Below are positions 26,213 through 59,251 of a stretch of 64,000 bases of DNA, in pieces; position 1 is the stretch's first letter; the number at the start of each line of letters is the position of its first letter. This DNA is from Octopus sinensis (Eukaryota): assembly GCF_006345805.1 (NCBI RefSeq), contig NC_043010.1, positions 9,300,001-9,364,000 of the forward strand, in the 5' to 3' direction. Below the pieces are notes generated by a model. The model had not been told where the DNA came from. It saw only the letters and a list, made by a program, of their open reading frames with translations, and searched no databases. The translations under genes were made by a program, and so were the position numbers.

Positions 26213-26587
26213 TATATATATATATATATATGCAATTTCTGTTTGCAGAATATTACTCTCAAGATCATGGTATAAGAGTTGTGACCTGAAGACTGCTTGA
26301 TGTAATGAACCATGTGATATCCCTTCTCTCTCTCTTCCTTTCTTTTTTTCTTTTGTTATTCTTATGGTTTACTTGTTTGTTTAATGCAGGCAATATGTTC
26401 TTAGATGTAGTAGTCCTTCAGAGCTCTTTCAAAATATGAATCTTGCCTAGTATGGCAAATAGTGGAATTGAAACCAGAAGTGTGTGACTATGAAGCAATT
26501 TTTTTAACCATGCAACATATAGCACCTCTACGTATAATGCTAAAATCACTTCAGACTGTAAACAACTCAAATAGTTTTTATCCTTTA

Positions 26588-27010
26588 TCTTTTAATTGTT
26601 TCAGTCATCGAAATGTGGCCATGCTGGGGCACTGCCTTAAAGGGTTTAGTCAAACAAACTGACCCTAGAAATTACTTTTAAGTCTGGTACTTATTCTGTC
26701 ACTATTGTTGAACAGCTAGGTTAGAGGGATGTCATCAAACCAACATCAGTTGTTGAGTGGAGGGAGGGAGACAACACTGATATAAAAAAACAGACAGACA
26801 GACATACAGACACACACATATGAGCACACACATAGTTATACACACAATGGGCTTCCATGCAGTTTCCATTTACCAAATTCACACAAAGTATTGATCAGCT
26901 TGGAGCTTTTAGTTATAGGCACTCACCCATGGTGCCATGTAGTGTGGAACTGAAGCCCGTAACCACATGGCTGTGAAGTAAGCTTCTCAAACACACAGCT
27001 GTGCCTGTGC
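26588..27010 (-). mobile_element. SINE family A, old degenerate copy
   Basis: Recognisable tail, body and head segments in reverse orientation. Confidence 0.6.
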
Positions 27011-54583: not shown

Positions 54584-55606
54584 AGTAGAGTCTATTTTGT
54601 GACAAGCGTTTCAGTCAAGTCTTCAGTTTAAGAAGAACACCTTCCTTGCTCCATTTCACAAGTCTCAGATATTCTTGAAAGGACTGTGAATATTGCCTTC
54701 TTTCCTGACTTAAAGGTAAAAATAGGAAAAAAAATCAAGAGAGATTTTGAGAATTGTCAACTCCTTTAATTATTACATAGACAGTTTTTATATACATCTA
54801 GTCACAACTTTATCAGTCATATAATACATATATCTATCATATTCAACAGAAATATATAAATAAAATGAATAAATACTTTGTTCTTTGACTGAAAGAAACC
54901 AATTTAACTTATGATTTTTTTCATGTATTGTAAGGTGGAAATCTTTCAATGCTTGTTAAAACTGTTAATATAGTTGTTCATAAATGTTCTCCCTTTAAAT
55001 GGAAACCAGTGTATCAAAAGTTACTGTGAATTCATACAGAAAATATTTAATTCTCACCTTGCACTAATTTATTCTCTTCACTTCTGCATATGAAATGAAA
55101 TAAATATACAATTACAGCAATAAATGATTTATTTTAAAGGATGATATGCGCGAAATCTTTGATAAAACATAATAGAACTGGTCTGAAATCTTGGTAGCAA
55201 ATGAATGAGTCAGAAGGTATTCTGGACAGATTGATGAAGGGAAGGTTTTATTGGTAAACTACACATGTAAAGATTTATGAGTGCACATCATACACAGATA
55301 AATATATTTATAGAGATATGCACTCTTGCACTATATATCTATATGTCCACAGGAGTGAATAATAAACATGTTTATGTACCAATATTACCATCAATTACAT
55401 GTTCAGTACTATTCTTTCATCGTTGTACAGTTCACAAACATGAGTACATGTGCATGTGTATGTATATCTAAGGTACACGCATACTCGTGTATGTGCATAT
55501 ACATGTACATATATGTTTAAATATATACATATATTAGTTTACAGATACTTATACATATAGATCTGCATATATATTTGTATACATAGATATGCATATATAT
55601 GTTTAT

Positions 55607-55874
55607 ACCGGAGTAAACACATAAATGTGAAACAAGGTGGAAAAAAGAGTACTCAAATACCAGTGGTAGAGTAATATGCTTTATTTAAAGCAGCAGAAAA
55701 TTCAACAAAACCTGTTACTCTGAGTTTCCCGTTGCCGTTGATGGTAATATTGGTACATAAACATGTTTATTCACTCCTGTGGACATATGGATATATTGTG
55801 CAAGAGTGCATATCTCTATAACGGGAAACTCAGAGTAACAGGTTTTGTTGAATTTTCTGCTGCTTTAAATAAAG
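55607..55874 (-). mobile_element. Fold-back PLE-like family 1 copy whose centre is captured flanking DNA
   Basis: Arms match 336-565; 55738-55821 is the reverse complement of 55308-55394. Confidence 0.8.
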
Positions 55875-57092
55875 TATATATGTGTATATATAGATATGCA
55901 TATATGTACACACACACATGCACATAGGCACACACATAGTCTGTTTAGCAAGTTCTTGCTTAACCTATGTTCAACCCTGATCAAACATATATCTATGATT
56001 ATAGGAAGGACTGTGAAAGCTATTGCACAGCCACTTCTTCCTGACTAAACCATTAAAAGAGAGTATTCCACTCTTTCTGTTTAGGAATACCTAATACCAT
56101 ATATAGGTGTTTTTCCTTTTTTAACATGGTAAGATGATATCTGATAAGGATATGGCTGCTATTTCTGGCAGATTGAGGTATGATTTGGAGATTTCCACAT
56201 TTGCTTCAGTTTATTTCTGTAGACCTATCAGGTTGATTTTTTTTTAATCTAGGATATGCTGAAATTCAGAACAATAAACTTACAGAGGTGGATTTCCTGG
56301 AGCCCAGAATCAGATTAAAGGAAACTAAAGCCTTAAGCATGCATTAACAACGATACTCTCCAACATTTGTTTTAGTTCTTTGCATTCAGAGTTCAAATCT
56401 CACTGCAGCCTAATTAGGTGGTAAACTTAGTCTGTGAACCACTTTAATATCATCTCCTAGCACCTTGGGTGCTTTTAGTGGAGTTCATTCTAGCAACAAT
56501 TTGACCAGGTTTCTTTCTTGTTTAAGGAAACCTTTTTCTCCACCTCCCAATAAACAATCTTGGAGGCCCTGCAAAAGGGTCATGGTACTGCAAAAAAAAA
56601 AAATGGGAAAAGAAAAAAAAAAGAGAAAATCTAAAAAGACCAATGAGGGAACCTCTCCATGGTAACTCAAAATTTAGAAAATAAGGACTAATTCTCTCTC
56701 AATTACCCCCTTAAAATCTTGAAATGAAAAAAGGGACCTGTTGGATAATATAGTCCTTGAAATGCAATGCTTATGAGAACTGATGACTAAATAATAAAAG
56801 CAGCAACTAAATAGTAAACACGAACTCCAACCACTCTCCCAAATGACTTGTTTCAGTCATTTGACTATGGCCATGCTGGAGCACCACCTTTAATCAAACT
56901 AATTAACCCCAGGACTTATTCTTTGTAAGCCTAGTACTTATTCTATCGGTCTCTTTTGCCAAAATGCTAAGTTACAGGGATGTAAACACACCAACATCGG
57001 TTGTCAAGAGATGGAGGGGGAACAAACACACACAAATACATATCTATCTATCTATCGATCTATCTATCTATATATATATATATATATCTATC

Positions 57093-57163
<71 letters not shown>

Positions 57164-58124
57164 ATATATATATATATATATATTTATAATAGGATTAGCT
57201 CGTATACGAGTAGGTATATATTTGTAAAAAATGAAGTTCGAAAATGCTGCTGTATTATACAATTTTTAATTTTTATATATACATTATAACATGTTTCAGT
57301 TCCTGAAATGAACCTTATCAAAAAAGTTATATATAAAAAAAGACAGCTCATGCCGTCAAACACAAGAAATTCATTTATAATACACAACGGAGTCAGACAT
57401 CTTAGAGTTCATGTATAGTTGATATATAGTTCATGTATAGTTGATATATAGTTTGAAGTATATGTTCAAAGTGTTCAATGCAGTGGCCCACGGTGGCGAT
57501 ACGTATTCAATACAAAAAACAGATCAAAGTGGTGGAAAGCGGTCAATACAGAAGATTGATGTTTCCGAAAGAGCGAGGAATTCATTTTTACCTTAAGCAA
57601 TTGTGATGACCCATGGTGGATGTTCGCTGGGTGGTTCTAGTGAGTTTTTGTGAAGTGCTCGGTTTTATAATGCCTGTTAGGTGGTCAATCCAGCGTAGCG
57701 TGACGTCATCAACGTTTTGACCAATCGTTTCGTTAGGTGGCTTTAGTCAAGTAGAACGGGACGTCATCATTATTTTGACCAATCGCTGCATTATAACTGC
57801 CTCTTGTTTGTTTCCTGTTTTGACCAGTTGCTTCATTAGTCAAGTAGAACGGGACGTCATCATTATTTTGACCAATCGCTGCATTATAACTGCCTCTTGT
57901 TTGTTTCCTGTTTTGACCAGTCGCTTCGTTAGTCAAGCAGAACGGGACGTCATCCAGATTCTGCCCAATCACGACTTATAGCTACATTAGATCTGCCCCC
58001 TGTCTGTACTTGTTAGGTGACTAGTCAAGCAGAAAAGGACGTCATCAATATTCTGACTAATGACTGTCCCCTGTTTGTATCCTGACCCTGATAATACGAT
58101 ACAGCTATGGGTCAGACCCGATTC

Positions 58125-58590
58125 TGATTGGTCAACAAGTTGATGACGTCTAGCTCTGCAAGAATGGACAGGATACAAACAGGGGACAGTCATTAGTCAG
58201 AATATTGATGACGTCCTTTTCTGCTTGACTAGTCACCTAACAAGTACAGACAGGGGGCAGATCTAATGTAGCTATAAGTCGTGATTGGGCAGAATCTGGA
58301 TGACGTCCCGTTCTGTTTGACTAACGAAGCAACTGGTCAAAACAGGAAACAAACAAGAGGCAGTTATAATGCAGCGATTGGTCAAAATAATGATGACGTC
58401 CCGTTCTACTTGACTAACGAAGCGACTGGTCAAAACAGGAAACAAACAAGAGGCAGTTATAATGCAGTGATTGGTCAAAATAATGATGACGTCCCGTTCT
58501 ACTTGACTAAAGCCACCTAACGAAACGATTGGTCAAAACGTTGATGACGTCACGCTACGCTGGATTGACCACCTAACAGGCATTATAAAA
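58125..58590 (+). promoter_or_regulatory. Putative pol II promoter: 93-bp repeats with CCAAT (GATTGG) and CRE-like (TGACGTC) motifs followed by TATAAAA; mirrored on - strand at ~57663-58060
   Basis: Repeated gattggtcaaaataatgatgacgtc; full TGACGTCA at ~58545; TATAAAA at ~58584. Confidence 0.5.
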
Positions 58591-58928
58591 CCGAGCACTT
58601 CACAAAAACTCACTAGAACCACCCAGCGAACATCCACCATGGGTCATCACAATTGCTTAAGGTAAAAATGAATTCCTCGCTCTTTCGGAAACATCAATCT
58701 TCTGTATTGACCGCTTTCCACCACTTTGATCTGTTTTTTGTATTGAATACGTATCGCCACCGTGGGCCACTGCATCGAACACTTTGAACATATACTTCAA
58801 ACTATATATCAACTATACATGAACTATATATCAACTATACATGAACTCTAAGATGTCTGACTCCGTTGTGTATTATAAATGAATTTCTTGTGTTTGACGG
58901 CATGAGCTGTCTTTTTTTATATATAACT

Positions 58929-58970
58929 TTTTTTGATAAGGTTCATTTCAGGAACTGAAACATGTTATAA
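58929..58970 (+). ncRNA. Hammerhead-like motif with U3-A8 core (mirror at ~57284-57324, - strand)
   Basis: tttt-TTGATAA-ggttc(atttcag)gaact-GAAA-catg-TT-ataa; stem I weak. Confidence 0.5.
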
Positions 58971-59133
58971 TGTATATATAAAAATTAAAAATTGTATAAT
59001 ACAGCAGCATTTTCAAACTTCATTTTTTACAAATATATATATATATATATGGATAAGATAGTTATTTAAAATACTGATCATACCAAGTGGCTAGCATGGG
59101 AATAAAAACCTCATAGGTAATAATTATTATTAA

Positions 59134-59251
59134 AAATTATAATTAAGGGTATCTAAAAGATACCATCATGCTAGAGATAGCAGTCAAAACTTGACTCTAA
59201 AACCAAATCAAATATTCATACATATCTTTTAGATACCCTTAATTATAATTT
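59134..59251. repeat. 29-bp perfect inverted repeat with 60-bp spacer
   Basis: aaattataattaagggtatctaaaagata / tatcttttagatacccttaattataattt. Confidence 0.85.

What the first reader, a model, noticed from the sequence alone, without database searches (positions are those of the whole stretch)
57215..59039. 1.8-kb palindrome forming a divergent promoter-to-ribozyme cassette
Seen: reading outward from the 84-bp spacer, each ~870-bp arm has 93-bp repeats rich in CCAAT and TGACGTC, then TATAAAA, about 340 nt of leader, a U3-A8 hammerhead-like motif and an AT-rich end at (TA)n. Inference: an almost complete pLTR duplicated head-to-head, giving a bidirectional promoter whose transcripts could self-cleave just before entering host DNA. 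Read-through would give an ~870-bp dsRNA, a strong ADAR or Dicer substrate and notable if the host is a cephalopod.
Basis: partly seen in the sequence, partly recalled or inferred. Interest (0 to 1): 0.75.

Follow-up and report, generated by a model that had tools for sequence, protein, structure and literature searches.

The report
Head-to-head Penelope retrotransposon end pair
The 1.8-kb mirror-image stretch is real and consists of two back-to-back copies of the end of an abundant Penelope-type jumping gene, likely laid down in a single insertion, so it is a known kind of footprint rather than a purpose-built switch, although its predicted promoter and ribozyme motifs are intact.

Summary
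The palindrome is real: two 874-bp arms, 99% complementary, around a 78-bp spacer. Each arm is the 3' terminal repeat (pLTR) of a young, high-copy Penelope-like element whose RT plus GIY-YIG parents lie elsewhere in this genome. The layout is published for Penelope elements and recurs here: 10 of 29 other tail-bearing copies have an inverted partner. The arms share all 8 subfamily markers and differ by private, mostly CpG, mutations, which fits one insertion followed by decay, not an assembly mirror. The U3-A8 minimal hammerhead is supported by sister families, but each transcript would carry only one, and its helix I is weak. Support for the promoter: 5' ends of other copies pile up at the predicted start (10 of 17 in fresh samples). 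The window is CpG-depleted, as octopus gene bodies are, so read-through dsRNA is plausible; no host gene was found and editing was not tested. Side result: the parent has a separate ORF1 with a conserved -1 slippery site. Verdict: new member of a known kind.

The parts
57183..57214 (-). 32-bp PLE 'tail': the first bases of the element body after the pLTR, present at this end only
   Evidence: Same sequence follows the upstream pLTR and runs into ORF1 in L036 and L100; absent at the right end
57215..58087 (-). Left arm: 5'-truncated pLTR of a Neptune/Nematis-type Penelope-like element
58088..59039 (+). Right arm plus the 78-bp 'spacer': one continuous 5'-truncated pLTR without tail
   Evidence: Matches other copies over query 1-958 at 96-99%; upstream of it the family has the end of the GIY-YIG ORF
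58082..58087 (.). Junction of the two copies: 6-bp overlap, exact to the family sequence on the right-arm side and 5 of 6 on the left-arm side
58126..58569 (+). Six repeat units, each with ATT(G/A)G-N12-TGACGTC (CCAAT-box-like plus CRE-like; factor names recalled)
57686..58066 (-). Five mirrored repeat units in the left arm
58584..58590 (+). TATAAAA box
   Evidence: Sequence; position
58608..58628 (+). Predicted transcription start: TCACT at 58610-58614, and hotspot of 5' ends of other family copies
57625..57669 (-). Mirrored TATA box (57663-57669) and predicted start (about 57641)
   Evidence: Mirror of the right arm
58913..58985 (+). Minimal type-I hammerhead motif: U3-A8 core 58933-58939, helix II 58940-58956, GAAA, palindromic CATG, predicted cut after 58966; weak proximal helix I
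57269..57341 (-). Mirrored hammerhead motif (one T fewer before the core)
57160..57182 (.). (TA)n target, left flank, next to (TATC)n
59033..59050 (.). (TA)n target, right flank

Best explanation
The palindrome is two 5'-truncated copies of the terminal repeat (pLTR) of a high-copy Penelope-like retrotransposon set head to head in a (TA)n tract, likely made in one insertion event and likely decaying neutrally since. Shown: both arms are the family's 3' end, one with and one without the tail; they meet at a 6-bp overlap, share subfamily markers and carry private mutations. Inferred mechanism: the RT-GIY-YIG protein nicked both strands of the (TA)n tract, primed one cDNA on each from the two adjacent internal start sites of element RNA (pLTR end and tail end), and the two cDNAs, both stopped near the promoter's upstream edge, were joined by microhomology. 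The promoter and hammerhead motifs are the element's own parts, carried along twice. The promoter likely works in source elements; whether it fires at this locus is untested. The locus likely lies in a methylated, transcribed gene body, so any read-through RNA would fold into an ~870-bp duplex that buries the ribozyme.
For: Family: 1325 first-look candidates, 40 scored, at 96-99% identity over full-length matches. In 29 of 29 other loci the arm ends at the same point followed by TA repeats (28) or the tail (1), while 5' ends vary. Parents have RT (PF00078, E 1e-6, just under the cut-off) and GIY-YIG (PF01541, over the cut-off) and a CxxxxCxxC linker. Inverted partners: 10 of 29 other tail-bearing loci, two of which look like one duplicated event. 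The partner lacks the tail in 8 of 8 pairs with both ends in view. Junction overlaps of 0-6 bp in 8 of 11 pairs, this one included. The arms agree at all 8 sites where they carry the minority allele of the family, and differ at 7 non-junction sites, each away from the family state; 6 of the 7 are CpG transitions. Under the stricter filter used for other copies this is 5 of 6 against 17 of 103, p=0.001. The layout with an inverted truncated copy and a one-sided 30-40 bp tail is published (PMC8557442 passages; PMC3846280 parts 1-2). Both-strand cutting and extension, and two RT start sites that bound the tail, were shown in vitro for another PLE (PMC11167929 parts 1-2). Window CpG o/e is 0.41 against a median 0.84 in flanks of 50 other copies.
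Against: No empty site and no reads across the centre were obtained, so the target-site duplication and read support are not shown. Two-sided priming is inferred from another clade's in vitro data; PMC3846280 instead favours self-priming on an antisense template. Inverted pairs are a minority in copies not chosen for the tail: 2 of 29 and 1 of 40 loci kept after de-duplication. No host exon was found. All 11 CRE-like motifs are still intact, which neutrality does not require but youth explains.
Confidence: 0.88

Rival explanations
1. One pLTR inserted first, and the second arm arose by fold-back self-priming of the cDNA or by a later DNA-level inverted duplication.
For: Shared subfamily alleles and a 6-bp junction overlap fit this too. 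PMC3846280 (Discussion passage) proposes self-priming for head-to-head PLE junctions.
Against: Each arm ends exactly at one of the family's two fixed 3' ends, one with and one without the tail, each in (TA)n. The same asymmetry holds in 8 of 8 other pairs. A DNA-level duplication would not respect those ends.
Confidence: 0.07
2. One reading: a working bidirectional promoter-to-ribozyme cassette whose transcripts self-cleave before host DNA, possibly kept by the host.
For: Both TATA/Inr-like sets, all CRE-like motifs and both hammerhead cores are intact. Copy 5' ends map a start site where predicted.
Against: The layout recurs as an insertion by-product. The arms accumulate CpG mutations independently. 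A lone minimal hammerhead was inactive in vitro (PMC4209133), and hammerhead mutants did not affect PLE insertion in vitro (PMC11167929). Proximal helix I has 3 of 5 pairs, and the predicted fold is not the active one. Neither arm's private allele occurs in 15 short copies that begin at the start site.
Confidence: 0.04
3. Assembly artefact: a fold-back or chimeric long read mirrored one copy.
For: Inverted PLE repeats trouble assemblies (PMC8557442 passage). No read support was obtained here.
Against: The arms differ at 8 sites with a CpG-decay signature, and the left arm has a 32-bp family tail that the right arm lacks. The flanks are unrelated. A mirror could produce none of these.
Confidence: 0.01

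Closest known systems
Insertion unit of endonuclease-positive PLEs: pLTR, adjacent inverted 5'-truncated copy, one-sided 30-40 bp tail (PMC8557442, passages; PMC3846280, parts 1-2 of 5 and passages)
   Same: Head-to-head truncated copies, tail at one end, (TA)n target, TATA followed about 20 bp later by TCACT, hammerhead near the pLTR 3' end.
   Different: No ORF between the repeats; both arms are nearly whole pLTRs; the pLTR is long (about 1.08 kb from the ORF2 stop) and has a CCAAT-like/CRE-like repeat array that the sister families examined lack.
Neptune/Nematis clades of EN+ PLEs (definition from PMC8557442 passages)
   Same: C-terminal GIY-YIG, CX2-5CxxC linker motif, CCHH motif, microsatellite target.
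   Different: The parent has a separate 466-aa ORF1 overlapping the RT-EN frame at a U UUU UUA heptamer; that paper's abstract calls canonical EN+ PLEs single-ORF. Its Fig. 1 legend mentions an optional frameshifted ORF1 in some PLE type, but the figure could not be seen. Neptune versus Nematis was not resolved.
Minimal type-I hammerheads of metazoan PLEs, U3-A8 variant (PMC4209133, parts 1-2 of 4)
   Same: U3-A8 core, short palindromic helix III, position in the pLTR.
   Different: Helix III palindrome is CATG where sister families have CCGG; proximal helix I is weak; helix II closes with G-U or A-U instead of the usual G-C.
PAc (Poseidon of green anole; PMC11167929, parts 1-2 of 4)
   Same: Two fixed 3' ends bounding a tail; a stem-loop around the tail near the ORF start; AT-rich target.
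   Different: Different clade, single ORF; here the hammerhead lies about 150 nt before the first ATG rather than overlapping it.

Membership tests
EN+ Penelope-like element | Parent encodes PLE-type RT with C-terminal GIY-YIG endonuclease | tested here: met
   ORF2 of L032 has RVT_1 (28.9 bits, cut-off 29.6) and GIY-YIG (27.7 bits, cut-off 22.6); intact frames also in L099
EN+ Penelope-like element | pLTR: same sequence before and after the ORF through partial tandems | tested here: met
   L036 and L100 have partial upstream and full downstream copies of the arm
EN+ Penelope-like element | Fixed 3' end, variable 5' truncation | tested here: met
EN+ Penelope-like element | [quoted passage not shown] | tested here: met
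   32 bp at the left end only; 8 of 8 other pairs are one-sided
EN+ Penelope-like element | Hammerhead motif in the pLTR | tested here: met
   Motif by comparison: 14 of 20 loci scanned, in this family and 4 of 7 sister families; no Rfam hit
EN+ Penelope-like element | Target-site duplication | tested here: inconclusive
   Both flanks are (TA)n; no empty site was obtained
EN+ Penelope-like element | Single ORF | tested here: not met
   Two overlapping frames in this family and 5 of 6 sister families whose junction was located; applies to the parent, not to the palindrome
Neptune/Nematis clade | CX2-5CxxC linker motif and CCHH motif | tested here: met
   CGRPNCGIC before the EN; CxxC..H..H within it
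Neptune/Nematis clade | Placement in an RT tree with reference elements | not tested
   No reference set was in hand; the homologue search was not run
Active hammerhead ribozyme | Self-cleavage | not testable with these tools
   Needs an assay; the predicted fold is not the active one
TIR / fold-back DNA transposon | Family consists of two-armed elements with fixed inner structure | tested here: not met
   Most copies are single arms with variable 5' ends attached to an RT ORF
LTR retrotransposon solo LTR | Fixed both ends, TG..CA termini, integrase-bearing parent | tested here: not met
   5' ends vary; parent has GIY-YIG, and Pfam gave no integrase match

The most novel reading that the evidence does not exclude
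Promoter-complete pLTR pairs like this one are live source loci: each arm makes a capped 420-460-nt RNA running from the TATA-set start to the RT start site, which the family's RT-endonuclease, itself made by a -1 ribosomal frameshift from a two-ORF message, copies in trans into the many short insertions that begin exactly at the transcription start; host read-through meanwhile turns the pair into an 870-bp dsRNA that silences or edits the family.
Probability: 0.12. Interest if true: 0.6.

Novelty: new member of a known kind. Interest (0 to 1): 0.22.

Why it matters
As a locus it matters little: it is one of probably dozens of head-to-head PLE footprints in this genome (an estimate from the sampled rates). 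Two family-level results are more useful. First, the pile-up of 5' ends at one site maps the transcription start from DNA alone. It suggests that in vivo the RT often starts at the first pLTR end, about 420 nt into the RNA, which would extend the in vitro internal-initiation result to another clade. One paper search for this listed only PMC8557442. Second, the conserved -1 slippery site implies gag-pol-like expression in an element class described as single-ORF. Earlier notes of this scan already report that, and two paper searches found no paper on it for EN+ PLEs; a key paper was not held. The promoter-complete pair is also a ready natural substrate for testing a cephalopod-type promoter and dsRNA editing.

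Tried and rejected
Rfam scan: no hammerhead family hit; the miRNA hits reflect the hairpin and simple repeats. Run search with the ORF2 region: no RNA holder listed. Laying three guessed-RNA contig sets on L053:600-3795 gave contigs across the ORF1/ORF2 overlap with no splice joint listed; the three joints listed lie in the pLTR repeat array or the internal repeat of ORF1. The RNA status of those runs is a guess and contigs drop rare forms, so this is no test of splicing or expression. The one raw-read DNA run laid 0 reads. No reads were laid on the locus itself, so the empty site, read support for the centre, exons and editing stay open. Host gene: 117 of 200 candidate frames went through Pfam. 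The only suggestive hit, Vac14_Fig4_bd at 26414-26659, is below the cut-off, had no PDB match, and the real gene maps to other contigs. A splice-site scan gave 25 candidates, none convincing by eye, not sent to Pfam. Donor test: the arms' two private alleles downstream of the start are in 0 of 15 short copies. No stable structure downstream of the slippery site (z -0.9 to +1.9). The hairpin before the ORF1 ATG is only weakly supported by energy (z -0.3 to -2.7 in 8 families). A protein homologue search was not run, so the clade tree is missing. Look-ups of earlier findings by sequence and near place returned nothing. Arkhipova et al. 2017 (Terminons) was not held; no supplements were read, and those of PMC8557442 may bear on ORF1 in Neptune elements.

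Full report
Observation. The palindrome is in the sequence as described. The arms are 57215-58087 and 58166-59039, with 8 substitutions and one indel in 874 columns. The 78-bp centre is the upstream continuation of the right arm's family sequence, so the structure is a 952-bp copy on + (58088-59039) joined to an 873-bp inverted copy. Each arm has repeat units with ATT(G/A)G-N12-TGACGTC (6 on +, 5 on -), TATAAAA, a TCACT 19 nt later, about 320 nt of leader, a hammerhead-like motif and an AT-rich end at (TA)n. All 13 TGACGTC matches of the window lie here, against 2.0 expected.

What it is. A search of the own genome (2.72 Gb; octopus-like by size and repeat content, which is my inference) gave 1325 candidates, of which 40 were scored, at 96-99% identity over full-length matches. 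In the 29 other loci fetched, the arm always ends at the same base and the 5' extent varies. Upstream lies a frame ending in a GIY-YIG endonuclease. Of 20 longer stretches, L032 holds a whole body: a 466-aa ORF1 with no Pfam match over cut-off, overlapping a 765-aa ORF2 with RVT_1 and GIY-YIG matches and a CxxxxCxxC linker. L036 and L100 show the arm sequence both before and after the ORFs, which defines a pLTR. The extra 32 bp at the left end are the first bases of the body after the upstream pLTR, that is, the PLE tail.

The layout is known and recurs. PMC8557442 (passages) describes an inverted 5'-truncated copy next to the 5' end and a 30-40 bp tail often at one end only. PMC3846280 (parts 1-2 and passages) gives examples, including a TATA box 20 bp before TCACT. 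Among 29 other loci chosen by the tail, 10 have an adjacent inverted partner (L115 and L116 look like one duplicated event), and 5 run on into ORF1. The partner lacks the tail in 8 of 8 pairs with both ends visible. Junction overlaps are 0-6 bp in 8 of 11 pairs, 28 bp by BLAST in one, and two have filler. Pairs are rarer in copies not chosen by the tail: 2 of 29 and 1 of 40 retained loci. L041 is a larger pair with about 1.4-kb arms and both promoters.

One event, then decay. At the 8 sites where this locus carries a minority allele of the family, both arms agree. They differ at one junction base and 7 private sites, 6 of them CpG transitions. With the filter used for other copies the count is 5 of 6 against 17 of 103 (p=0.001). 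This argues against an assembly mirror and against selection for perfect pairing. The whole window is CpG-poor (o/e 0.41, against a median 0.84 in flanks of 50 of 60 other loci with enough flank; 4 of 50 are as low as the near flanks). In Octopus bimaculoides, methylation marks bodies of highly expressed genes rather than transposons (PMC9476566, passages). The locus therefore likely lies in a transcribed gene, but I found no exon.

Promoter. In the tail-selected set, 7 of 28 de-duplicated 5' ends fell at 58612-58624. I then fixed the interval 58608-58628 and tested 60 fresh loci. Ten of 17 ends in the zone open to both queries (58400-58644) fell inside it (p=2e-7 against a uniform spread). 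Copies reaching further upstream were collapsed by the de-duplication, so they are not counted. The hotspot begins 24-28 nt below the TATA box, at the TCACT. The simplest reading is RT run-off at the RNA's 5' end, with RT starting at the first pLTR end about 420 nt downstream. That matches the internal initiation shown in vitro for PAc (PMC11167929, parts 1-2). A sequence-specific RT stop is not excluded. This supports a promoter in source elements, not activity at this locus: 0 of 15 short copies carry either arm's private allele. The repeat array is particular to this family: 10 sister-family 3' regions have 0-3 TGACG matches against 8 in L099.

Ribozyme. Rfam does not detect it. In 20 loci of related families, a TTGAnAA-type core (TTGAAGA in one), a helix II, GAAA, a palindrome and UH were found in 14 loci, covering this family and 4 of 7 sister families at the matching position. 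Helix II and helix I sequences differ yet pair, and the palindrome changes from CCGG to CATG (three further matches elsewhere look like chance). Within the family 29 of 31 copies keep core and helix II, 11 with an A-U in place of the G-U closing pair. The U3-A8 variant is published (PMC4209133). Here, however, proximal helix I pairs at only 3 of 5 positions and the predicted fold is not the active one. Single minimal hammerheads did not cleave in vitro. Head-to-head copies put the two motifs on opposite strands, so no transcript holds a dimer. In a read-through RNA 98% of bases pair and the motif is buried.

Mechanism, shown versus inferred. Shown: family identity, parents, tail asymmetry, junction overlap, shared alleles, private CpG changes, 5'-end hotspot, motif conservation. 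Inferred: two-strand nicking and two cDNAs, microhomology joining, location in a transcribed gene, read-through dsRNA. Untested: promoter activity here, cleavage, editing, small RNAs.

Side result on the parent. In 21 of 22 junctions located, from 6 of 7 families (ORF1 matches 33-58% identical), TTTTTTA followed by G lies in the ORF1 frame where the RT frame overlaps it at -1. The RT frame has a Met before the first RT motif in only 2 of those 6 families. ORF1 stays open while the other frames hold stops, and no stable downstream fold was found. L097 and L098 were not picked up by the scan. A -1 ribosomal frameshift is the likely reading; a splice acceptor is the rival. I noted this before seeing that earlier scan notes report the same; they are not independent support. 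Earlier notes from this genome also read similar palindromes as ordinary PLE footprints.

Verdict. A real, well-formed but ordinary product of Penelope-like insertion: new member of a known kind, interest 0.22.

Noticed in passing
L032:1713-5377; L099; sister families L081-L096: Parent has ORF1 overlapping RT-GIY-YIG in the -1 frame with an invariant U UUU UUA heptamer (21 of 22 junctions). The ORF1 stop is 12-13 codons downstream in four families and 22 in two.
   Followed up: yes
family-wide, window-equivalent 58608-58628: 5' ends of copies cluster at the predicted transcription start, giving many ~420-bp mini-copies.
   Followed up: yes
about 75 nt before the ORF1 ATG in L084, L087, L089, L091, L092, L094, L100: A 7-10 bp stem with differing sequence between families encloses the tail end, just before GAAAATG or a near match; it resembles the stem-loop at the RT start of PAc. 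Energy support is weak.
   Followed up: partly
window 1-64000: CpG o/e is 0.32-0.52 in every 8-kb block, suggesting a germline-methylated gene body, yet no exon was identified.
   Followed up: partly
window 26414-26659 (+): Weak Vac14_Fig4_bd match below cut-off; possibly a decayed fragment or chance, as the gene maps elsewhere.
   Followed up: partly
window 55308-55879: Two nested short inverted repeats: 55308-55362/55767-55821 and 55674-55733/55820-55879, 96-98% complementary; possibly a small TIR element.
   Followed up: no
window 59251-59452/61344-61545 and 56889-57034/61568-61713: Older inverted pairs of dispersed repeats (81% complementary) flank or straddle the palindrome and would add to dsRNA in a read-through RNA.
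   Followed up: no
window 59137-59248: Short imperfect hairpin just right of the insertion (weak Rfam MIR9555 hit from hairpin shape).
   Followed up: no
L041 (G000:C15, about 17221.3-17224.2 kb): Larger head-to-head pair of the same family, about 1.4-kb arms with both promoters.
   Followed up: partly
L035:3-1853: Long frames of what looks like another retroelement's RT next to a truncated copy; not characterised.
   Followed up: no
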